Source: a virus
Lineage: Duplodnaviria; Caudoviricetes
Virus record (IMG/VR): IMGVR_UViG_3300028805_000086
Span: 31,643 to 95,642 of that record
Length of the DNA: 64,000 nucleotides
Direction: 5' to 3' (one strand)
The notes under the pieces were generated by a model. That model made no database searches and was not told the origin of the DNA. It saw only the letters and a list, made by a program, of their open reading frames with translations. Made by a program: the position numbers and the translations under genes. Below are positions 3,028 to 28,098 of this stretch, piece after piece (position 1 is the stretch's first letter; each line of letters begins with the position of its first letter).

Positions 3028-3249
3028 ATGAGTAGAGTTGTTGTTATTGAAAAAAATAAGGATGGAAAAATTGAACTCACAAAAGAAGAACTTCAGAAAA
3101 TGCTTGATGATGCATACACCCAAGGATACAGAGACCACCAAGTAAGATATGAAACGATTACATATCCAAGTTATCCAGTTTGGTATGCAACTACAAATAC
3201 AATAAGTAAAGACTCCGTGACGTTGAACAGTACTGACGTTAGCATTTAA
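3028..3249 (+). CDS. Hypothetical protein flanked by 13-bp direct repeats TTTAAAGGCGACT
   Basis: RBS AAAGGAG; repeats at 3000-3012 and 3245-3257. Confidence 0.6.
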   Translation: MSRVVVIEKNKDGKIELTKEELQKMLDDAYTQGYRDHQVRYETITYPSYPVWYATTNTISKDSVTLNSTDVSI

Positions 3250-3522
3250 AGGCGACTTTGCAAAAAGGAAAAACAGTAAATTTTCTACATTTTTCTAATG
3301 ATTGTTAACCAAATCCTCCCTCGCTATCCCGAAACGGATATAAGCATTTTACGCGTATGCTTGACTTGAAGGATTTGGAGCAATAAAGAAGATCGTTTCG
3401 TTATGAGGCGGTCTTCTTTCATTTTCATATTTTTATCAGCTAGTAGATAAGCTATCAGGTTGAAAGATATTTGCAAAACTGATAAAACATCAAATTTCTT
3501 TTTTCATCTAGGAGGGATCAGA

Positions 3523-4170
3523 ATGACTGGTGAAAATGGAACAATGTATATGCCTGTGGCACCTGCGTATGGTGGTAACGACATGTTCGGTGGAAATTCT
3601 GCTTGGTGGATTATTATTCTGTTGATCTTCGGCGGATGGGGCTGGGGAAACAACGGCTATGGTGGCAATGGAGGCATCGGATCCGAGGTACAACGTGGTT
3701 TTGATCAGAATGCCATTATGAATGGCCTGTCTGGAATTCAGAATGCTATTACTACCGGCAATGCTGCAATGCAGAGTTCTTTCCAGAATTGTTGTTGCCA
3801 GAATCAGCTTGGAATCGCCGATCTTAAGTACACTGTTGCCACTGAAGCTTGTGCCGATCGTAATACTGTATCTATGGCTCTTCGAGATGTTCTTGAGGCT
3901 AACAATGCGTCTACTCAGCGTATTCTGGATACCATGTGCCAGGATAAGATTGATGCAAAGAATGAACTGATTGCTAATCTGCGTCAGCAGCTGGCTGCTG
4001 CTCAGGCTGCGGCTTCTCAGAATGCTCAGACTGCTGCAATCATTGCTAATAATGAAGCTCAGACAGCGGCTCTTGAACAGTATCTTGCGCCAGTCCCGCG
4101 TCCTGCTTATATTGTGCAGAATCCTAATGGCTGCAATTGCGGTGCTAATTTCGGTTGCGGCACTATTTAA
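3523..4170 (+). CDS. Gly/Asn-rich protein with WWIIILLIF hydrophobic segment and CCC motif
   Basis: RBS AGGAGG precedes ATG 3523 (the ORF track starts at 3460). I recognise the family from clostridial phages; function unknown. Confidence 0.65.
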   Translation: MTGENGTMYMPVAPAYGGNDMFGGNSAWWIIILLIFGGWGWGNNGYGGNGGIGSEVQRGFDQNAIMNGLSGIQNAITTGNAAMQSSFQNCCCQNQLGIADLKYTVATEACADRNTVSMALRDVLEANNASTQRILDTMCQDKIDAKNELIANLRQQLAAAQAAASQNAQTAAIIANNEAQTAALEQYLAPVPRPAYIVQNPNGCNCGANFGCGTI

Positions 4171-4264: not shown

Positions 4265-4723
4265 ATGGCTGAATTTATTTATAACGAGATTCAGCAGATT
4301 CCTGCTGGTTCTTCTGCTTTGCTTAATGATGCGATTCCATGCAATCGCGGATATGTTCTTCATCGTCCTGGTTCTGGTATTCTTACTCTTAAAGGTGCGG
4401 TTAATAATCCTTGTGCTCGCTTCGCGAGATATAAAGTAGTTTATGATGGTAATATTGCAGTTCCAACAGCAGTTGCTCCTGGAGAGATTCAGGTAGCTAT
4501 TGCAATCGGAGGAGAAGTTCTGTCTTCAAGTATCGCTGCTGCAACTCCGACAGTTGCCGATGCATATTGGAATGTTTCGGGCTTTGCGATCATCGATGTA
4601 CCAGTAGGATGCTGCTATACTGTCGCTATTGAAAATGCTACCGTTTCTGAAGATCCCGCTACTACGCCGGCTATTCCGATTAATATGCGGAATCTTAATG
4701 TTGAAGTAACCAGACTGGCGTAA
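4265..4723 (+). CDS. Conserved hypothetical beta-rich protein
   Basis: RBS GGAGG; motif CNRGYVLHRPGSG. Confidence 0.6.
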   Translation: MAEFIYNEIQQIPAGSSALLNDAIPCNRGYVLHRPGSGILTLKGAVNNPCARFARYKVVYDGNIAVPTAVAPGEIQVAIAIGGEVLSSSIAAATPTVADAYWNVSGFAIIDVPVGCCYTVAIENATVSEDPATTPAIPINMRNLNVEVTRLA

Positions 4724-4737
4724 AGGAGGAAATCAAA

Positions 4738-5103
4738 ATGGAAGTAAAAAAGCATGAAATGCTAGAGCAGAAAATGTGTAAAGAACTGGATATGCTTGAA
4801 GAAAAGATGAGAACTGGCGGAGAAATGAGCATTCAGGATCTCGATAAGATTGATAAGCTTTATCATGCATTGAAGAGTATGGCTACTTATAATGCTATGA
4901 AAGAAGCTGAAGAATATGGATATTCTGAAGATGGAATGAGTGGTCGTCGTGGACGTGATGCTTCTACTGGAAGGTATATTAGTCGGGATGATGGCAGAAG
5001 TTATACCGATGGGTATTCCAGGGGATATTCTGAAGCGATGAATCAAATGAATAATAGCGGACATTACCCTCCTATGCCTGATTATACTCCTCGGCGGTGG
5101 TGA
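4738..5103 (+). CDS. Conserved hypothetical protein (RRGRD..GRYISR)
   Basis: RBS AAGGAGG; 121 aa. Confidence 0.6.
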   Translation: MEVKKHEMLEQKMCKELDMLEEKMRTGGEMSIQDLDKIDKLYHALKSMATYNAMKEAEEYGYSEDGMSGRRGRDASTGRYISRDDGRSYTDGYSRGYSEAMNQMNNSGHYPPMPDYTPRRW

Positions 5104-22278: not shown

Positions 22279-22881
22279 ATGTTTGGGAAAATCGGGGTTG
22301 CTATTAGTAGTTGCGCATTGGCGGTTGCGTTGACAAATCTGGTTCTCGCTTATAAGGAAAAGAAAAAGCTTGAGAAACAGATGAATGATCATGAGAAAAT
22401 GGTAAAGAACATGGTTAAGTCTGCTGATAAGGCAATCGAAGATCTCTCTGAAGATATCTCCGTTGATATCAAGGACGAAATTGTTGAAAAAGCAATGAAA
22501 TTGGCCATTGACAAGGAAGTTACGATTACGGCACGGAATGCTGCTACCGAAGCAAAGAATGATATTCGTGCCGACATCTCCAGTATTATTCGTAAAGAAG
22601 TTCAATCGCAAAAAGATCGCATCGTCAATGATGTTGATCAAAAACTGGTAGATGAAATTAGTAAGATTTCAAAGAATGACATCATTGATGATATTCAAAG
22701 GAAAGTATCTGGCGAAATCATTGATAAAATTGATAAGAATCTCTCAAATATGAGGGAAACCTGTGAGAAGAAGCTTAAGGATAATGTTGATTCCCTCACA
22801 AGAGATGCTCGTAATCGTATGGACATTTGGCTCGATAATTATAAGAGCGATTATATTACCTGGCGTTATCGGCGCATATGA
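22279..22881 (+). CDS. Membrane-anchored coiled-coil protein
   Basis: N-terminal hydrophobic helix followed by a long helical region. Confidence 0.65.
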   Translation: MFGKIGVAISSCALAVALTNLVLAYKEKKKLEKQMNDHEKMVKNMVKSADKAIEDLSEDISVDIKDEIVEKAMKLAIDKEVTITARNAATEAKNDIRADISSIIRKEVQSQKDRIVNDVDQKLVDEISKISKNDIIDDIQRKVSGEIIDKIDKNLSNMRETCEKKLKDNVDSLTRDARNRMDIWLDNYKSDYITWRYRRI

Positions 22882-23444
22882 GTATTCAGGGGCTGTGAAA
22901 TTAAGTAGCAGCCCCTTTTAAAATAGATATTTTAGAGAAAGGAGCATGTATTTAAACTAAAAATTGAGTATTTCAAGAATGGAGGGATGCAAACCCAAGA
23001 GCATCAGAGGAAGACAACTTAATAAGACGACAACCATTTACAACAAAGGATATGAAGTAGAAATTGATATTGTACCAGATATTGGTACACCGGCGGTTGA
23101 TGACGTATTCGATAAAGTCAATCGCAAGTTAGCACTCGGCAGGAGTGTTAGTCTTTCAGATATTCAGGATATGCTAGGAGTTAAAGGAAGTCGTAAAAGC
23201 GATGGATACTGCCTGGATCCTAATATTATGAGAGATTCAGAGATGGATTACGATTGGCAGTATTTGATTGACTATGATCCCTATTTAGGAAAAACAGTGT
23301 ACGGACGTAAAGTCATTATATGGGGGTTGGTTAATCAGAAACGTAAAATGCCAAGCGATGTTCATAGAAATAAGAGAAGAACTTATGAATCGGATGATAA
23401 TTTCCGATTTGATGAAACCGCCTTATAAAGAAAGGAGAATCAAA

Positions 23445-23720
23445 ATGGAAGGCGTTTATTATAAATGCCCTAATTGTGGGAGCTATGTTTCGGACAATTC
23501 TGAAAAAGATATTTTGAAATGCGAACATTGTGGAACGACTATTACAAAACCATATACGTGGTATGATAAAAGCCTTCAATTTCTTTATAGGCGAGCAAAA
23601 GCTAAAGAAAAATTGGAGCAGGAAAAAATAGCCCGCGAAGCAAAAGCCGCAAAGATTTCTGCATGGGGGCTTTGCATCACGTTAGTCTGCGCGATTATTA
23701 TGGTATTAATATTTGCATAA
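23445..23720 (+). CDS. Zinc-ribbon membrane protein
   Basis: CPNCG...CEHCG and a C-terminal TM segment. Confidence 0.65.
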   Translation: MEGVYYKCPNCGSYVSDNSEKDILKCEHCGTTITKPYTWYDKSLQFLYRRAKAKEKLEQEKIAREAKAAKISAWGLCITLVCAIIMVLIFA

Positions 23721-23796
23721 TGTCGCACGAGAAACACGTGTATAAATAGGAGATAACGAAACGTTGTCTCTTTAATTTTTTACAAATTGGAGGAGA

Positions 23797-24318
23797 ATGA
23801 AAACTATGGCTAAGACTAAACGAATGAAGGAATTCAAGGAACGGCTTAAGAGGAATGGAGAATTCTTTGTAGGCCAAATCGAGAAATCCAAGATGGACCA
23901 GTGCGACGAATTTATTGATAAACTGGCCAACATTCTTGGTGACAACTATGAGATGGTTGCCTCATGCAATAAAGACCTTAGCCGGTATCTCGTTCCTAAA
24001 GGAACAAAAGATCAGATTACTTATTATGGAAAACCTGAAATGAGTTTCCGAGTAAGTGATCATTGGAACTGGTATTCCAGTACAGAAAAGTGTACGAATG
24101 AGCGCTATGTTCAGTGCTTCAGCATGGACCTCCCCAATCCTCGTCCAAGACCGGCTCCTGGTGTAGGCACCAATGCAATCAGTGCGTATCAGGTCGCTAT
24201 CCAAGTGGACGGACGATACCATCATGTATTCGGCGACAAATATAATCGTCGAATTCGTAGATGGGAATGGGAAGAAAATGATCCGGAGAAAATTCTCCAG
24301 CAGTATAATTTGATTTAA
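23797..24318 (+). CDS. Hypothetical protein with RVSDHW motif
   Basis: RBS GGAGG; first gene after motif 23724. Confidence 0.65.
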   Translation: MKTMAKTKRMKEFKERLKRNGEFFVGQIEKSKMDQCDEFIDKLANILGDNYEMVASCNKDLSRYLVPKGTKDQITYYGKPEMSFRVSDHWNWYSSTEKCTNERYVQCFSMDLPNPRPRPAPGVGTNAISAYQVAIQVDGRYHHVFGDKYNRRIRRWEWEENDPEKILQQYNLI

Positions 24319-24325
24319 CAAATTC

Positions 24326-24821
24326 GATGGCAGCTAATGTGATTTACTACTTTTATAAAAGATTGATAAAGACAATCGCATAATTACGCCATCCCGTAAA
24401 GCACTGGATTCTAATCTTAAAAGCTAAATTGGCTTACTTCACATAATACTTTAAATATTAAATAGTCAATTAATTTCTTTACAGATTAGAAACCAGTCAT
24501 GAGGAAGCTATTCAAACTTACTACTACTTTTAAAAAGATGCTTAAAAATAGTTTGAAAATCTCTCCTCAAATCACCTCCTTTATTCCTAGCTAGTGTTGC
24601 TTACTTCATTGGCGGATATGAAGCAGCACAATATCAGGAGGTGCACTATTCTGGAAGGATCTTGGCAGCTAACATAATTTACTTCATAATTATAGATTTT
24701 TTATTATTCAATTATGTGCTTTCGCCAAGGTCCTTTCATTTCCTTTCTTTTTTGTAAGCTAACAGGGCTTACTTCACATAAATAAATTAATTTAATTCAG
24801 TCCTGTAATTTTATGCAAAAA
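24326..24821 (+). ncRNA. Tandem array of six structured RNA units (outer stem-AGCTA-inner stem-TACTWC-loop-inner stem'-AATYWC-outer stem')
   Basis: Units 24326-24393, 24403-24497, 24500-24569, 24584-24640, 24653-24737, 24749-24821. Stem sequences differ between units but stay complementary. Confidence 0.8.
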
Positions 24822-24846
24822 TGATATTTGAAAGGAGCAAATCAAA

Positions 24847-25938
24847 ATGGAAAAGATTTTTAAGGACTATCTGTTTCAGCATCATATTTTGGTGTCTGAA
24901 AAAGAAGGCACTATTGGTGAGGCCTTCAACACAATCACTGCTCTAGCGAATGTTTACAGTATTCGCATTGTTAAAGGAGCAAAATATGCTTGTGAGAGCA
25001 TGCTGCAGGATGCAGCCGATAATTTAGGAGATCGTGTACCAGAACCATTTTACAGAATGTTTCCTAACTCTGTCAGAGCGATGACACCGGATCAACTGCT
25101 GTACGATCAGCTTTATCACTATACTCAGACGTATGGCATGGGCTGGTTCGATGCTCCAGCGGGGCATTCTATTTTCGAAGAAGAGACTCCTTCAGAAATG
25201 GCGGATGAGTCTAATCGCGAAAAATTCTTCGATAAAATGGTCGTAGAAAAATCCGAGGCTAAGAATTTTGTGATCATGACCGAAGACGATGCCGTTGCTA
25301 AATTGGTTGAATATCTTCGTGAATTGATCGAAAGTCCTCGACCTCTCAATGAAGGGCAAATGCGTTTTCTTTACGAAGGATTCATCAAATATGATACGGC
25401 AATTACTGCTAATACGAATATTCCTTGTAAAAGAATCGCAGTTGAGCTTTTCTATCTGACAAAGAGTATTGTATTTGCTAAAAAGCTTAAGCTTAGTGAT
25501 ACCATTAAGCTTGTTGAATATATTCAGAATAACTTGTATGGAAGTACCGATCTTAAGAAGCTTAATTTCAAGAATAAAGATCGGAAATTAATCACTGCTT
25601 TTATTGATTATCATCTTTCCGCTGAGCATTTTGAAGGTTATAAAGAAGTTCGGAAAGCCTTCAATCAGCGTAAAATTTGGTGCGGCTTGCTGCATCATAT
25701 TCATTATAAACCGAAAGGCCGGATTGCTCAGAAGTTTGTAAAAGATATTCGTGAAGGCAAAAATCAGTCTTTGAATAGTGGTTTCGAGCGGTGTATGCGC
25801 CATGATCGACCTGTAGAAGCTGCTGAATACCTTAAGAACAATGAAGGAAGCGGTGCACTTATGAGAAATATGAATTATATTCTCAGTCGCTGCAAGAACG
25901 ACAAGGAGATTGAGGAGGTGATCTCATGTCTGGAGTAA
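24847..25938 (+). CDS. Alpha-helical ROT/TROVE-like protein (N-terminal half of a TerD-associated family)
   Basis: PFYRMFPNSV...LLYDQLYHY..TYG and GALMRNMNYILSR motifs, recognised from the N-terminal part of TROVE-like/TerD fusion proteins. Family assignment is from memory. Confidence 0.55.
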   Translation: MEKIFKDYLFQHHILVSEKEGTIGEAFNTITALANVYSIRIVKGAKYACESMLQDAADNLGDRVPEPFYRMFPNSVRAMTPDQLLYDQLYHYTQTYGMGWFDAPAGHSIFEEETPSEMADESNREKFFDKMVVEKSEAKNFVIMTEDDAVAKLVEYLRELIESPRPLNEGQMRFLYEGFIKYDTAITANTNIPCKRIAVELFYLTKSIVFAKKLKLSDTIKLVEYIQNNLYGSTDLKKLNFKNKDRKLITAFIDYHLSAEHFEGYKEVRKAFNQRKIWCGLLHHIHYKPKGRIAQKFVKDIREGKNQSLNSGFERCMRHDRPVEAAEYLKNNEGSGALMRNMNYILSRCKNDKEIEEVISCLE

Positions 25939-26996
25939 ATCCTATTATTCTTATTCAGATGCTGAATCAGTATCATAACTATAAAGAAGGGAATCGTATT
26001 TTCAGATTTGTTAAGAATAATCTTATGAAAGTGCATACTGAAACCGATAAAGAAATGGCTAAGCGCAAGTCTGTTCTTAGTAAGAAGACAAGAGATGTTG
26101 CAGCAAGGGCCATTCGGAATCGGCTTGACAAATACCTTGATGGCAAAATTGGGAATCTTTATATTTCTGATAAGATGAAGAATATTACAGTGCCGCTTCA
26201 GCTCAGTACGAGTGAAAGCGGTTATGGCGTTCTTTCTACAGGAAGTCGGATTGATATTCCTGAAGGCCGGTTTATCAGAGCATTCACTTATTGGGAAAAG
26301 GTAAACGACATTGATATTTCCGGATTTGCTATCAAGGAAAACGGGGAGCAAATGGAATTTAGCTGGCGTAATATGTGGTATAAGCAAAGCGAAGAAATTT
26401 GCTTCAGTGGCGATGAAACTAACGGATATTATGGCGGAAGCGAATACTTCGATATTGATCCAGAGTTATTCAAGAAAAATAATCCCGACTACAGATATAT
26501 CGTATTCTGTGATAATATTTATACCAGTGGTGGTTCCATTCATTTTAAAGATTGCGAGGCAACTGGTGGCTTCATGATCCGTGAAAAGATGGAACCGAAT
26601 ACTCGTGGATACGGAAGCGAGGGAAAGACTTTCGAGATATTTGATCCGAAGACGGTAGAGACCTCGTTCAAACTGCAAAGTGATTCGTCATTCTGCTATA
26701 TGTTTGCGATCGATCTCAAAAATAGGCAAATGGTTTGGCTTGATATTTCCAGAGAAGGAAATCATGCAATTGCCGGAGATACCAGTATGAGATGGCTGTT
26801 GAACTATATGTCCATGACAGAGGTATATAGCGTATACGATTTGTTTGTATCAATGTGCACAAATCATGTAGAAAATCCGAAATACGCGGATATCCTGGTT
26901 ACGGACGAACCTGATATCAAGCCGATCAAAGAAAATGCCATACTTATCCACAGCTGGGATACTGAAAAAATATTTAAGTATCTTCAGGTTGGATAA
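25926..26996 (+). CDS. TerD-domain protein
   Basis: GSRIDI...IRAFTYW...DIDIS...FSGD.TNG...SEYFDID...RYIVF..NIY...FDPKTV. Own RBS GAGGAGGTG, overlapping the upstream stop. Confidence 0.7.
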   Translation: MSGVNPIILIQMLNQYHNYKEGNRIFRFVKNNLMKVHTETDKEMAKRKSVLSKKTRDVAARAIRNRLDKYLDGKIGNLYISDKMKNITVPLQLSTSESGYGVLSTGSRIDIPEGRFIRAFTYWEKVNDIDISGFAIKENGEQMEFSWRNMWYKQSEEICFSGDETNGYYGGSEYFDIDPELFKKNNPDYRYIVFCDNIYTSGGSIHFKDCEATGGFMIREKMEPNTRGYGSEGKTFEIFDPKTVETSFKLQSDSSFCYMFAIDLKNRQMVWLDISREGNHAIAGDTSMRWLLNYMSMTEVYSVYDLFVSMCTNHVENPKYADILVTDEPDIKPIKENAILIHSWDTEKIFKYLQVG

Positions 26997-27088
26997 AAAA
27001 CTGTTCACTATTTGGAAAGTAGATAGCTGTGAACCCGCTAGATTGGCTGGTAATGATCACTATCTATTCTCCATTTTTATCTGAAAAA

Positions 27089-27122
27089 AAGGGTGTGCAA
27101 CCAGCATGCCCTTATTTTTTTT
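27089..27122 (+). terminator. Intrinsic terminator after the TerD gene
   Basis: AAGGGTGTGC-AACCA-GCATGCCCTT followed by poly-T. Confidence 0.75.
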
Positions 27123-27615
27123 GACTTTTATTTATGGTCATATTGACCGCGTACTAAACACGTTTAGTAATGAAGGAACAATATAGTTCTTTCGGTCAAA
27201 AATACAAAAAAGAGAAAAGGAGTAATGAACTATGGAAAGCAAGGTATTAAGTTATGTGTATTTTAAAGGGATTCAAACGGGATATAAAGACGTGACAGTA
27301 CCTGACCCCGGACGGTATATGAAAAATCTACATAGGATTGAGGCAAATGGATTTTTTAAATATATCGATTATGCGGGCCAGTTTACCGCAACGATCGAAG
27401 GAAAACCCGGTATTTATTATGGATATAGCATTATTGCTAATAGAGAAATTACAAAAGAAATATTAAATTTGATCGACTATGACTATTCAGAGTCCTTCGA
27501 TATGGAAACTAATGAAAAATTAGATAAAGATTTAGGAACATTTGATGACTATTTGAAAGAAATAGCAGACGAAATTTGGTCTGAAGTGACCAGAAAATAA
27601 AAGGAGGAAATTACT

Positions 27616-28098
27616 ATGGAAATCATGGGAATTCTGAAAGAATTGGAGCTCGAATTGGTTGAGCAGAAAACCCTGCTGGATGAGCAGGAAACAAAACTCG
27701 CGGAATGCGAGAGAATTGCCGAAGAGGCACTTGCGGCGGTTGACGCCGTGACTAAGATGCGTAATTGCATCAAGGAGCGCTATGAAGCGCTGGCAAAGGC
27801 CAAGGAGGCCTTAAGCGGGATTGATATCCCGACGGAAATAAAAGAAATCGAGGAAAAAACCACTGAAAAGGTGGAAAAGACAGGAAAGACGAAGCGGATC
27901 AAACAGATCCAGTGGACCCGTAAGAACGGGACATTAGTCCGGTATGACCGGAACGGAAAAGAAATGCAAAAGTTTGTGTCGCAGAAAGCGGCAGCAAGAG
28001 AACTGGGATGGGACCAGTCAAGTATGAGCATTTTTGTGCGTCTTAAGCCGGAAGAGCAGATCCGGCGTAAAGGATTTTACTTTAGGTGGATCCCGTAA
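27616..28098 (+). CDS. Coiled-coil protein with C-terminal NUMOD1-like HTH
   Basis: VRYDRNGKEMQKFVSQKAAARELG. Confidence 0.55.
   Translation: MEIMGILKELELELVEQKTLLDEQETKLAECERIAEEALAAVDAVTKMRNCIKERYEALAKAKEALSGIDIPTEIKEIEEKTTEKVEKTGKTKRIKQIQWTRKNGTLVRYDRNGKEMQKFVSQKAAARELGWDQSSMSIFVRLKPEEQIRRKGFYFRWIP

What the first reader, a model, noticed from the sequence alone, without database searches (positions are those of the whole stretch)
24326..27122. Six-unit structured RNA array coupled to a split TROVE-like/TerD gene pair: candidate phage RNP system
Seen: the 530-bp gap after ORF 23797-24318 holds six tandem units with the same architecture. Each has an outer stem, invariant AGCTA, an 8-bp inner stem, TACTWC, a variable AT-rich loop, the complement of the inner stem, a 6-7-nt AATYWC-like bulge and the complement of the outer stem. 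Inner stem pairs: ATGTGATT/AATCGCAT, AATTGGCT/AGTCAATT, TTCAAACT/AGTTTGAA, GTGTTGCT/AGCAGCAC, ACATAATT/AATTATGT, ACAGGGCT/AGTCCTGT. The stems are all different yet all pair, several with G-U pairs. This covariation points to selection on RNA structure rather than on a DNA repeat. The last unit ends 25 nt before ORF 24847, which is translationally coupled to a TerD-domain ORF followed by a terminator. Established: TROVE/Ro60 proteins bind Y RNAs through a bulged stem, and proteins with ROT/TROVE-like repeats plus C-terminal TerD have been proposed to act in RNA-processing complexes. Inference: these units are Y-RNA-like ligands or scaffolds, or autoregulatory binding sites, for the two proteins. 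Together they would form a phage RNP, possibly for RNA repair/protection or counter-defence.
Basis: partly seen in the sequence, partly recalled or inferred. Interest (0 to 1): 0.92.

Follow-up and report, generated by a model that had tools for sequence, protein, structure and literature searches.

The report
Phage Ro-like protein with Y-like RNAs
A rumen phage carries six tandem hairpin RNAs directly upstream of a two-gene, Ro60-like/TerD protein. The same RNA-protein pairing recurs in about a hundred phage and bacterial loci, often with a tRNA-mimicking module, so it looks like an undescribed cousin of the Ro60-Y RNA ribonucleoprotein.

Summary
Six hairpin units (24326-24821, + strand) share one architecture: outer stem, AGCUA, 8-bp stem, UACUWC, variable loop, stem complement, AAUYUC-like bulge, outer-stem complement.

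A covariance model built from the units finds 146 copies in 96 related loci. All are on the gene's strand and nearly all lie just upstream of homologues of ORF 24847/25926. Pairing is 88-95% against 58-60% in shuffles, G-U pairs far outnumber A-C, and no Rfam family matches.

- **Proteins.** The two ORFs are a conserved split of a protein that is a single ~690-aa chain in most relatives. ORF2 has a firm TerD fold (Z 14.1). The helical half of ORF1 matches three Ro60 structures as the top 3 of 48,161 chains (Z 9.4, 8.1, 6.1). Pfam TROVE does not match and profile comparison is weak (E 0.014).
- **RNA relatives.** In about half of the bacterial loci one unit carries a T-arm, closed acceptor stem and D-arm. 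That is the layout of YrlA Y RNAs (Rfam YrlA 42.7 bits, below threshold).
- **Context.** RtcB and tRNA arrays recur nearby.

Best reading (about 0.62): a divergent Ro60/Y-RNA-like RNP with TerD in place of vWA. This phage carries a split protein and six minimal Y-like RNAs. RNA-protein binding is inferred, not shown.

The parts
23723..23748 (+). Phage-specific promoter-like motif (YCGC-N6-AACAY-N7-WATR), the likely start of the transcription unit holding the array and both ORFs
   Evidence: 40 matches in the window against 1.08 expected. Copies lie at 23723 and 27147 with none between. An adapter-bounded contig from an RNA library starts at 23775.
23797..24318 (+). 173-aa ORF of unknown function, in the same transcription unit and upstream of the array; probably not a core part
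   Evidence: No Pfam, PHROG or PADLOC match. Homologues occur only in the closest phage loci L003/L004.
24326..24393 (+). RNA unit 1: GAUGGC / AGCUA / AUGUGAUU / UACUAC / loop / AAUCGCAU / AAUUAC / GCCAUC
   Evidence: covariance-model hit 60.3 bits, E 3e-10
24410..24490 (+). RNA unit 2 (inner stem AAUUGGCU/AGUCAAUU; extended outer stem with one bulge)
   Evidence: model hit 24416-24483, 57.6 bits
24500..24569 (+). RNA unit 3 (inner stem UUCAAACU/AGUUUGAA)
   Evidence: model hit 59.8 bits
24574..24645 (+). RNA unit 4 (inner stem GUGUUGCU/AGCAGCAC; short apical hairpin; two alternative outer stems)
   Evidence: model hit 24583-24641, 48.4 bits
24652..24738 (+). RNA unit 5 (inner stem ACAUAAUU/AAUUAUGU; 15-bp outer stem)
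   Evidence: model hit 24661-24729, 57.6 bits
24749..24821 (+). RNA unit 6 (inner stem ACAGGGCU/AGUCCUGU), ending 25 nt before the ORF1 start
   Evidence: model hit 24751-24818, 56.8 bits
24847..25938 (+). ORF1, 363 aa: N-terminal alpha/beta domain (1-150) plus helical repeats (152-363) that resemble the first part of the Ro60 HEAT ring. Corresponds to the N-terminal half of the ~690-aa fused family.
   Evidence: AF2 model pLDDT 90.6. VIA-align top three are Ro60 chains: 9l5y_B Z 9.4, 2nvo_A Z 8.1, 1yvp_A Z 6.1. Most homologues are fused. No Pfam family.
25926..26996 (+). ORF2, 356 aa: N-terminal helical/beta linker (1-100), TerD-fold beta sandwich (110-291), C-terminal alpha/beta tail. Translationally coupled to ORF1 (13-nt overlap, GGAGGTGA ribosome-binding site).
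   Evidence: AF2 model pLDDT 85. TerD structures: 2qz7_B Z 14.1 and 2kxt Z 11.9; Foldseek probability 1.0. Matches phrog_33734 positions 479-721 of 764.
27089..27122 (+). Intrinsic-terminator-like hairpin plus T-tract closing the unit
   Evidence: Contigs of RNA library X3 stop at 27005 and resume at 27206, while DNA run X1 runs on (weak hint, one study).

Best explanation
The array encodes six small structured RNAs that are the cognate partners of the protein made by ORF1 plus ORF2. Together they form a ribonucleoprotein built on the Ro60/Y-RNA plan. ORF1 and the first ~100 residues of ORF2 supply a divergent TROVE-like helical module, and ORF2 supplies a TerD domain where Ro60 has its vWA domain.

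Each RNA has a basal protein-recognition scaffold: two coaxial helices around the conserved internal loop AGCUA / RAUWUC, and the invariant single-stranded UACUUY next to a conserved C-G / G-U / U-A helix end. It also has a variable apical module.

In many bacterial and some phage relatives the apical module is a YrlA-type tRNA mimic. In this phage lineage it is reduced to AU-rich loops, the RNA is multiplied to six different copies, and the protein is split into two translationally coupled chains.

The whole set is transcribed as one unit, from the promoter-like motif at 23723 to the terminator at 27089. The RNAs are presumably cut out of the transcript or bound in place.

By analogy with Ro60/Y RNA/PNPase and the rsr-yrlBA-rtcBA operon, the likely role is handling damaged or misfolded structured RNA, tRNA above all, during infection. 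That could serve repair or counter-defence.

What is shown: RNA structure and strand, exclusive co-occurrence, the TerD fold, Ro60 as nearest fold, the tRNA-like modules, and the RtcB/tRNA context. What is inferred: physical binding, RNA processing, ring closure and the biological role.
For: (1) RNA selection on the + strand. Covariation is 88.1% and 95.3% paired against 58-60% in shuffles, with 12 of 13 pairs compensatory. G-U outnumbers A-C 116:14 and 61:21. A G-U pair is the commonest type at one conserved position.

(2) Exclusive linkage to the gene. There are 47 model hits in the window plus 14 distinct viral loci and 99 hits in 80 bacterial loci, all on the gene's strand. In 59 of 74 full-length bacterial loci a unit ends within 600 nt upstream, with a median gap of 29 nt. 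In four whole isolate genomes (13.9 Mb) every hit lies at the gene locus.

(3) Distant cultured phages keep the pairing. Rhodococcus phage Weasels2 has four units beside the gene, and Lactobacillus phage LpeD has weak hits with GCUUACUUC in the upstream gap.

(4) tRNA-like modules. 36 of 74 bacterial loci have T-arm, closed hairpin, then D-arm inside a unit upstream of the gene. Only 41 such matches exist in the 1.7 Mb scanned. Rfam YrlA aligns to this module at 42.7 bits, E 3.8e-8, model positions 22-89 of 114. YrlA has exactly this layout (PMC4201824).

(5) Protein. Ro60 chains rank 1-3 of 48,161 for ORF1 residues 152-363, with 189-196 residues aligned. A Ro-like Gordonia phage protein is the first hit outside the family in BFVD. 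hhalign is collinear and aligns LHHIHYKP with HPKP and LRNLNYL with LLRNLNTL (E 0.014). The TerD fold is firm.

(6) Context. RtcB lies within 6 kb in 7 of 80 bacterial loci and in Weasels2. tRNA arrays flank the locus in several phages. The host isolates searched lack a Pfam TROVE protein.

(7) Precedent. Thermus phage phiLo Ro60 binds two Y-like RNAs encoded upstream of its gene (PMC12135203).

(8) The region is present in sheep-gut metatranscriptome contigs.
Against: Pfam TROVE does not match any member. PDB profile searches found nothing, Foldseek against PDB found no Ro60, and hhalign probability is only 3%. Z 6-9 is within the range that helical repeats reach by arrangement alone. Only about 210 residues align, so a closed ring is unproven. 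The window's own units have no tRNA-like module, no CGAA motif and no Rfam hit. The RNAs sit in the 5' leader, 25-30 nt from the start codon, with no terminator between, which fits a cis-regulatory role equally well. RtcB linkage holds in only about 9% of loci, and this phage has neither RtcB nor tRNA genes. The RNA-library contigs may include DNA carry-over and come from one study.
Confidence: 0.62

Rival explanations
1. Cis-acting autoregulatory leader. The hairpins act only as operators in the 5' untranslated region. The protein binds them on its own mRNA and blocks the adjacent ribosome-binding site (as ThrRS does on its tRNA-like leader), and no free small RNA is made. This still implies RNA-protein binding and could coexist with the main reading.
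For: The last unit ends 25 nt (window) or a median of 29 nt (59 loci) before the start codon. There is no promoter-like motif and no terminator between the array and ORF1. In most loci the units are on the same strand and immediately upstream.
Against: Copy number ranges from 1 to 6 with fully different stems, which an operator would not need. In Weasels2 the four units lie downstream of the gene. In L081 extra units lie upstream of rtcB, about 1.9 kb from the gene. The apical tRNA-like modules with intact T and D arms resemble the stable, trans-acting YrlA. In run X4 the contig holding the array has higher depth (19.4) than the contigs over the ORFs (3-4), a weak hint only.
Confidence: 0.2
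2. Independent phage small RNAs or tRNA-derived decoys. They merely travel with the gene as one mobile cassette and act on host targets (for example as decoys for tRNA-cleaving defence nucleases) without binding ORF1/ORF2.
For: tRNA-like modules and placement inside tRNA gene arrays in several phages.
Against: The linkage survives across very distant lineages (Clostridia, actinophage, Lactobacillus phage), and hits are absent elsewhere in whole genomes. The internal-loop motif changes with the protein lineage (AGCUA/RAUWUC against AUUAAGA/CGCUCA in Weasels2) while UACUUC stays constant, as expected for co-evolving partners.
Confidence: 0.1
3. Type III toxin-antitoxin-like module. A repeat RNA array is cut by, and neutralises, a toxic protein encoded downstream.
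For: Tandem RNA units lie directly upstream of the protein gene on the same strand.
Against: The units are only about 52% identical and covary, rather than being near-identical repeats. Most loci have a single unit. There is no terminator between the RNA and the gene. The protein shows no ToxN/CptN-like or other nuclease fold and has no real PADLOC match (only a marginal Cas7b hit at E 0.0011).
Confidence: 0.04
4. DNA-level element (origin iterons, recombination or packaging sites that form cruciforms) rather than RNA.
For: Tandem inverted repeats in an AT-rich gap (GC 0.31 against 0.38 for the window).
Against: G-U pairs greatly exceed A-C pairs (116:14 and 61:21). This asymmetry would not exist for double-stranded DNA hairpins usable on either strand. 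Strand and position relative to the gene are fixed in 146 copies. tRNA-like modules occur in homologues. The region is present in RNA-library contigs.
Confidence: 0.02

Closest known systems
Bacterial and phage Ro60 (Rsr) with YrlA/YrlB Y RNAs, including Thermus phage phiLo Ro60 with Yrl1/Yrl2 (PMC4201824, PMC12135203)
   Same: A helical-repeat RNA-binding protein is encoded beside one or more small RNAs. Each RNA is a long basal stem with a conserved internal-loop recognition site plus an apical effector module. In relatives that module is a tRNA mimic in the order T-arm, closed acceptor-like stem, D-arm. In phiLo the RNAs lie upstream of the gene. RtcB is a recurrent neighbour, as in the Salmonella rsr-yrlBA-rtcBA operon. 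Ro60 structures are the nearest solved folds to ORF1.
   Different: There is no Pfam TROVE match. TerD replaces the vWA/MIDAS domain, and an extra N-terminal alpha/beta domain is present. The basal stem motif is AGCUA / UACUUY / RAUWUC, not the GNCGAA helix. Rfam YrlA does not reach threshold. In this phage the protein is split in two and the six RNAs lack the tRNA-like module.
TerD family proteins (Pfam PF02342; structures 2KXT, 2QZ7, 3IBZ)
   Same: ORF2 residues 110-291 adopt the TerD beta-sandwich. The family keeps an invariant SGD-T-G--GGSE--D segment in ORF2, reminiscent (from memory, not tested) of the Ca-binding loops of TerD proteins.
   Different: Classical TerD proteins are ~190-aa stand-alone proteins of ter stress-resistance operons with no known RNA partner. 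Here the domain is embedded in a ~690-aa protein (or its C-terminal half) with a Ro-like helical module. The Pfam model barely detects it (1 of 44 members, E 0.011).
NCBIfam NF041916, MXAN_6230/SCO0854 family RING domain-containing protein
   Same: Sub-threshold but clear similarity (75-108 bits, E 1e-21 to 1e-31). It covers the end of the helical region, the linker and the TerD domain (profile positions 384-712 of 842).
   Different: The scores are far below the 600-bit cut-off. That family has an N-terminal RING region absent here. I found no published function, and did not test for an RNA partner.
Type III toxin-antitoxin systems (ToxIN, CptIN)
   Same: A tandem RNA array lies directly upstream of a protein gene that is expected to bind the RNA units.
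   Different: The repeats are not near-identical, there is no intervening terminator, and the protein is not a ToxN-like endoribonuclease. Most family members have only one or two units.

Membership tests
Ro60 / TROVE (Pfam PF05731) | Match to the TROVE profile | tested here: not met
   No Pfam hit for ORF1 or ORF2 at E<=1. None of 44 fused homologues hit TROVE at E<=0.1. No TROVE match in the whole phage genome at E<=10.
Ro60 / TROVE (Pfam PF05731) | Remote homology by profile-profile comparison | tested here: inconclusive
   hhalign of the family against a 32-sequence TROVE alignment gives E 0.014 and probability 3%. The alignment is collinear over about 430 columns and pairs LHHIHYKP with HPKP and LRNLNYL with LLRNLNTL. 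The tool's default run gave E 0.14.
Ro60 / TROVE (Pfam PF05731) | HEAT-repeat ring fold | tested here: inconclusive
   Ro60 chains are ranks 1-3 of 48,161 (Z 9.4, 8.1, 6.1; 189-196 residues aligned; rmsd 4.3-5.3) for ORF1 residues 152-363. These Z values are within the range helical repeats can reach by arrangement alone, only the first part of the ring is covered, and ring closure with ORF2 could not be modelled.
Ro60 / TROVE (Pfam PF05731) | C-terminal vWA domain with MIDAS site | tested here: not met
   A TerD-fold domain occupies the corresponding position. No vWA match by Pfam.
Ro60 / TROVE (Pfam PF05731) | Adjacent Y RNA gene(s) | tested here: inconclusive
   Structured RNAs are adjacent in the window and in about 85% of loci. 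Those in homologues have YrlA-like modules. None reaches the Rfam Y RNA or YrlA thresholds, and binding is untested.
YrlA Y RNA (Rfam RF02553) | Score at or above the gathering threshold (69 bits) | tested here: not met
   No hit in the window array even at E<=10. No hit at gathering score in five homologous loci. Best partial hit is 42.7 bits in L087.
YrlA Y RNA (Rfam RF02553) | tRNA-like module in the order T-arm, closed acceptor-like stem, D-arm | tested here: not met
   Absent from all six window units. Present in units of 36 of 74 bacterial loci, in L005/L006 and in Weasels2. So it is met for the RNA family at large but not for this array.
YrlA Y RNA (Rfam RF02553) | Ro-binding helix with the GNCGAA(N)G motif (PMC4201824) | tested here: not met
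   No GNCGAA or CGAA anywhere in 24319-24846. The YrlA model's stem positions 1-21 and 90-114 do not align in L087. The conserved motifs here are AGCUA, UACUUY and RAUWUC.
TerD (Pfam PF02342) | TerD beta-sandwich fold | tested here: met
   2qz7_B Z 14.1 (150 of 169 residues, rmsd 2.9) and 2kxt Z 11.9; the next row is Z 5.6. Foldseek probability 1.0 to five TerD entries.
TerD (Pfam PF02342) | Match to the Pfam profile | tested here: not met
   No hit for ORF2. One of 44 fused homologues hits at E 0.011. One precomputed PF02342 label appears among 120 homologues.
Type III toxin-antitoxin | Near-identical tandem RNA repeats, a terminator before the toxin gene, and a ToxN-like endoribonuclease | tested here: not met
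   Mean column identity among units is 52% with covarying stems. No terminator between array and ORF1. Folds are Ro-like helical and TerD.

The most novel reading that the evidence does not exclude
A second, widespread class of Ro-like ribonucleoprotein has gone unnoticed because its protein escapes the TROVE profile and its RNA escapes the Y RNA models. It pairs a TROVE-like ring fused to a TerD ligand- or Ca-sensing domain with a modular RNA. The RNA's basal scaffold (AGCUA / UACUUY / RAUWUC) co-evolves with the protein, and its apical module ranges from a full tRNA mimic to a bare loop. Phages would deploy it, here as a split protein with six different RNAs made from one transcript, to manage or protect tRNA and other structured RNAs against host RNA-targeting defences. 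The TerD domain would couple the RNP to a small-molecule or metal signal.
Probability: 0.35. Interest if true: 0.88.

Novelty: new variant of a known kind. Interest (0 to 1): 0.8.

Why it matters
Ro60/Y RNA particles are a classic but still poorly understood RNA quality-control system, and the role of the vWA domain and of the tRNA-like Y RNA module is still open. This family keeps the Y-RNA plan but swaps the vWA domain for TerD. It has a different recognition motif and occurs in at least 252 loci among bacterial species' representative genomes (species not counted), as well as in phages of Bacillota and Actinomycetota and, by fold match only, a Campylobacter phage. It offers natural experiments: fused against split protein, tRNA-like against minimal RNAs, and one to six copies. 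These make it testable which parts of a Y RNA are needed for protein binding and which for effector recruitment.

It would also give TerD, a domain known mainly from tellurite and phage resistance operons, its first RNA-linked context. It adds an unannotated RNA family (146 copies found here) to gut and rumen Clostridia. Its recurrence in phage tRNA-gene regions and next to RtcB points to a role in the tRNA-centred arms race between phages and hosts.

Tried and rejected
- **Rfam.** At E<=10 over 23000-28000 the only hits were chance-level and none lay in the array.
- **ARAGORN.** No tRNA or tmRNA in the window or the whole 95.6-kb phage.
- **blastn against 50,697 phage records.** No match.
- **Foldseek of ORF1 against PDB.** Only generic armadillo/HEAT/14-3-3 rows with E>0.1.
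- **PDB profile searches with both family alignments.** No hit at E<=1.
- **ESM Atlas for ORF1.** Best score 0.84 (DUF5717), below the level that means anything, and the Atlas's own model is poor.
- **PADLOC.** Nothing real; Cas7b at E 0.0011 over 75 residues is taken as chance.
- **Positive control for YrlA.** I looked beside canonical TROVE genes (nine loci with 1.5-kb flanks) and found only tRNAs, so the control did not work.
- **ORF 23797-24318 as a third component.** Rejected, because it is conserved only in the nearest relatives.
- **Palindromic internal-loop strands.** AGCU and GAUAUC could in principle mediate RNA-RNA dimerisation. I rejected this as general, because the 3' strand is not palindromic in the window units.
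- **UACUUC as an anticodon-loop mimic.** No consistent 7-nt loop exists.
- **Papers.** Searches for TerD with TROVE or Y RNA, and for SCO0854/MXAN_6230, found no description of this family. Anantharaman et al. 2012 and Burroughs & Aravind 2016 are not held and could not be checked, so prior mention there cannot be excluded.
- **Run X4 coverage.** Parts of ORF1/ORF2 have no contig cover in X4. That is not evidence of absence.


Full report
**Setting.** The window is bases 31643-95642 of a 95.6-kb IMG/VR virus record judged complete. Near-identical DNA occurs in sheep, cattle and goat gut metagenomes. The phage has no tRNA genes.

**Observation.** The 528-nt gap 24319-24846 contains six tandem hairpin units on the + strand:
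- 24326-24393
- 24410-24490
- 24500-24569
- 24574-24645
- 24652-24738
- 24749-24821

They are separated by 4-16 nt. Each has an outer stem of 4-15 bp, AGCUA, an 8-bp inner stem, UACUWC, an AU-rich variable loop of 14-25 nt, the inner-stem complement, a 6-7-nt AAUYUC-like strand and the outer-stem complement.

AGCTA-N8-TACTWC occurs exactly six times here. Allowing one mismatch, a single further hit lies elsewhere in 64 kb (1.16 expected; 0 of 100 shuffles reach 7). All six inner stems pair 8/8, with four G-U pairs and no A-C. The whole gap folds into the six hairpins with z = -6.19. The units are only about 52% identical column by column, so they are not a simple DNA repeat. No Rfam family matches the array even at E<=10.

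**The RNA is a conserved family tied to the downstream gene.** ORF2 has 158 homologues in the word-indexed protein search, and ORF1 has 210 in the exhaustive representative search. I fetched 17 viral loci (L003 and L004 identical) and 80 bacterial genome loci around ORF2 homologues. The bacterial scan confirmed 252 loci in all. They are mostly Lachnospiraceae and other Clostridia MAGs from rumen and gut, plus isolates such as Lachnospiraceae bacterium C6A11 and AC2029, Eubacterium ruminantium FB3002 and a Bariatricus strain.

A covariance model built from 17 units (13 base pairs) gave these results:
- 47 hits in the window plus 14 distinct viral loci, and 99 hits in the 80 bacterial loci.
- Every hit is on the strand of the gene.
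- In 59 of 74 bacterial loci with a full-length gene, a unit ends within 600 nt upstream of the start. The median gap is 29 nt, close to the 25 nt in the window. At least four more are masked by my over-long ORF calls.
- In four whole isolate genomes (13.9 Mb) the model hits only at these loci.

Covariation is strong in both sets. In the viral set 88.1% of cells pair against 58.3% shuffled. In the bacterial set it is 95.3% against 60.3%. Twelve of 13 pairs show changes on both sides, and slid controls give 30-47%. The alignments were fitted to the model, which helps pairing somewhat, but the margin is large.

G-U pairs outnumber A-C by 116:14 and 61:21. One position near the top of the inner stem is most often G-U. 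This asymmetry identifies a + strand RNA rather than a DNA element.

The most conserved features are AGCUA (94 of 97 bacterial units) and UACUUY following a ...CU end of the inner stem.

**Distant cultured phages keep the pairing.** BFVD and tblastn find fused relatives annotated only as hypothetical or 'cytoplasmic' proteins. By tblastn they are in Lactobacillus phage LpeD, Rhodococcus phage Weasels2, Rhodobacter phage RcXuper, Ruegeria phage RpAliso and Mycobacterium phage WXIN. By fold match in BFVD there is also one in Campylobacter virus IBB35.
- In LpeD the 236-nt gap upstream of the gene holds two weak model hits, each with GCUUACUUC.
- In Weasels2 four units lie directly downstream of the gene. 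They keep UACUUC after the inner stem but have a different internal loop, AUUAAGA-like on one side and CGCUCA on the other.

An invariant UACUUC together with a lineage-specific internal loop is what a conserved contact plus a co-evolving recognition site would look like. This is inference.

**tRNA-like modules.** In L005/L006, in Weasels2 unit 3 and in many bacterial loci, the apical 'loop' of one unit is replaced by three elements in order:
- a T-arm (for example GCGGG-UUCGAAU-CCCGC);
- a closed 6-8-bp hairpin;
- a D-arm (GUAGCUCAGUUGGUAGAGC).

A strict pattern for this permuted order matches upstream of the gene in 36 of 74 bacterial loci, and only 41 times in the 1.7 Mb scanned on both strands.

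[quoted passage not shown] Rfam's YrlA model aligns to the module in L087 at 42.7 bits (E 3.8e-8, model positions 22-89 of 114). That is below the 69-bit gathering score, and the Ro-binding stem parts of the model do not align.

The L005 unit has a 7-bp acceptor-like stem followed by ACCA. That recalls M. smegmatis YrlA, which RNase P cleaves and which receives CCA (PMC4201824).

The six units of the window have no such module and no CGAA motif.

**The proteins.** Neither ORF hits Pfam. ORF2 hits phrog_33734 at positions 479-721 of a 764-position profile. Most ORF1 homologues are single 670-735-aa proteins that cover both ORFs. The window therefore carries a split form.

The split is real and conserved:
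- The same 13-nt overlap occurs in L003/L004 (47% identity), and a split also occurs in L002 (53%).
- Both halves have many 340-365-aa homologues.
- No indel appears at the junction in the DNA or RNA-library contigs.
- A GGAGGTGA site precedes the ORF2 ATG.

ORF2 (AF2 pLDDT 85) has a TerD beta-sandwich at residues 110-291. Matches are 2qz7_B Z 14.1 and 2kxt Z 11.9, with the next row at 5.6. Foldseek gives probability 1.0 to five TerD entries.

ORF1 (pLDDT 90.6) has an N-terminal alpha/beta domain followed by helical repeats. Foldseek against PDB gives only generic repeat proteins. The Foldseek-independent scan of 48,161 chains ranks three Ro60 proteins first, for residues 152-363:

| Chain | Protein | Z | Residues aligned |
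|---|---|---|---|
| 9l5y_B | Thermus phage phiLo Ro60 | 9.4 | 191 |
| 2nvo_A | D. radiodurans Rsr | 8.1 | 189 |
| 1yvp_A | Xenopus Ro | 6.1 | 196 |

The next row has Z 5.9 over only 56 residues. In BFVD the first hit outside the family is a 'Ro-like RNA binding protein' of Gordonia phage VanLee (probability 0.93, E 0.21).

Profile-profile comparison with a 32-sequence TROVE alignment is weak (E 0.014, probability 3%). It is collinear, though, and pairs the family's nearly invariant LHHIHYKP and LRNLNYLLSRC with Ro60's HPKP and LLRNLNTL. On that alignment the Ro-like region runs across the ORF1/ORF2 junction, and TerD takes the place of the vWA domain.

I rate kinship with TROVE as likely but not established.

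NCBIfam shows a sub-threshold link (75-108 bits against a cut-off of 600) between the C-terminal 330 residues and NF041916, a 'RING domain-containing' family named after MXAN_6230/SCO0854. I found no paper on that family.

**Context.**
- Among 120 immediate neighbours in the bacterial loci the commonest Pfam family is RtcB, with 7 members.
- tblastn places RtcB within 6 kb in 7 of 80 loci, usually on the same strand and directly flanking the RNA-gene pair.
- In L081 further units sit upstream of rtcB itself.
- Weasels2 has RtcB 3 kb downstream and four tRNA genes just upstream.
- Several viral loci sit inside tRNA gene arrays.
- Otherwise the neighbours vary, so the RNA plus gene behaves as a self-contained cassette.
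- The four isolate genomes searched have no Pfam TROVE protein. Only 6 of 301 sampled genomes of the phylum do.
- This phage has no RtcB.

**Expression in this phage.** A phage-specific promoter-like motif, noted earlier in this scan (e1-5914966), is confirmed here: 40 matches against 1.08 expected. Copies lie at 23723-23748 and 27147-27172, with none between. Terminator-like hairpins lie at 23748-23772 and 27089-27113, and none separates the array from ORF1. The predicted unit is therefore ORF 23797, the array, ORF1 and ORF2.

Two sheep-gut metatranscriptome runs hold the region. They come from one sample and one study, which differs from the likely DNA source.
- In X3, contigs cover 22500-27005 and resume at 27206, while DNA run X1 continues across the gap.
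- In X4, adapter-bounded contigs span 23775-24668 and 27186-27852. They begin 27 and 14 nt after the two promoter-like motifs.
- In X4, the contig holding the array has depth 19.4, against 3-4 for contigs over the ORFs.

These are contigs from an RNA library that may contain DNA, so I treat them as a weak hint of transcription and of unit boundaries only.

**Interpretation.** The simplest account of all this is a ribonucleoprotein on the Ro60/Y-RNA plan. A Ro-like helical protein carries TerD instead of vWA, and adjacent RNAs share a basal recognition scaffold with a swappable apical module. The nearest documented case is Thermus phage phiLo. Its Ro60 binds two Y-like RNAs encoded upstream of its gene and assembles with host PNPase (PMC12135203).

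This phage lineage has the derived state: a split protein, six different minimal RNAs and no tRNA-like module. I put this reading at 0.62.

The main rival, which overlaps with it, is a purely cis-acting autoregulatory leader (0.20). The constant 25-30-nt distance to the start codon favours it. Against it stand the downstream placement in Weasels2, the units beside rtcB, the variable copy number and the YrlA-like modules. Independent decoy RNAs (0.10), a type III toxin-antitoxin (0.04) and a DNA element (0.02) fit poorly.

**Novelty.** I found no description of this protein-RNA pairing in Rfam 15, Pfam, PHROGs, NCBIfam or PADLOC, or in the searchable literature. Two relevant comparative-genomics papers could not be read, so an earlier mention of the protein architecture cannot be excluded. 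I class the finding as a new variant of a known kind. It works like Ro60/Y RNA but fails the membership tests for TROVE (profile, vWA) and for YrlA (score, stem motif).

Noticed in passing
window 23723-23748 and 27147-27172 (and 38 other sites, mostly 9.6-32.5 kb): A phage-specific promoter-like motif YCGC-N6-AACAY-N7-WATR: 40 matches at up to 1 mismatch against 1.08 expected, 38 of them on the + strand. Adapter-bounded contigs of an RNA library begin 27 and 14 nt after the two copies flanking this locus (23775, 27186). These could be transcription start sites.
   Followed up: partly
L125 (Rhodococcus phage Weasels2, NC_041887.1) 4300-4660: Four units of the same RNA family lie downstream of gp266 (692 aa, 'hypothetical protein'). 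They keep UACUUC but have a different internal-loop motif (AUUAAGA-like / CGCUCA). Unit 3 carries a full T-arm / hairpin / D-arm module. None is annotated in the record. RtcB lies 3 kb further on and four tRNA genes just upstream.
   Followed up: partly
L081 2871-3080 (Bariatricus sp. contig): Two further RNA units sit immediately upstream of an RtcB gene (3111-4013), about 1.9 kb before the TROVE-like/TerD gene, which has its own unit at 4872-4935. So the RNAs are not always a leader of that gene.
   Followed up: no
L005/L006 4765-4905: A unit whose apical module has a 7-bp acceptor-like stem followed by ACCA, closed by a 10-nt loop. This suggests possible RNase P/Z processing and a tRNA-like 3' end. 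The covariance model missed it because of the long insertion, so tRNA-like units are probably under-counted in the viral loci.
   Followed up: partly
ORF2 and fused homologues (e.g. P0130 residues 293-621): Sub-threshold similarity (75-108 bits; cut-off 600) to NCBIfam NF041916, 'MXAN_6230/SCO0854 family RING domain-containing protein'. This hints at a wider superfamily sharing the linker plus TerD part. I found no literature on it.
   Followed up: no
L007 4709-4924: A variant of the RNA in which AGCUA is replaced (GCUG or none) while CU-UACUUC, AGU and GAUAYC are kept. The 5' internal-loop strand is therefore less constrained than UACUUC.
   Followed up: no
window 23358-23720: A 120-aa ORF with weak zinc-ribbon matches (several Pfam zinc-ribbon families at E about 3e-4, all below their cut-offs). 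A homologue occurs in L003/L004.
   Followed up: no
L103, L108, L110 (canonical TROVE/Ro60 loci): Canonical Ro60 genes in a Bacillota genome and in two IMG/VR phages also sit next to tRNA genes. No YrlA reached Rfam's threshold within the 1.5-kb flanks held.
   Followed up: no
L030/L041 7039-8433 and L077 3496-4590: TIR-domain plus DUF6273 proteins are immediate neighbours of the RNA-gene cassette in a few Lachnospiraceae loci. HipA, MazF-like (LpeD) and an IS605 OrfB also occur nearby. This suggests placement in defence or mobile-element islands.
   Followed up: no
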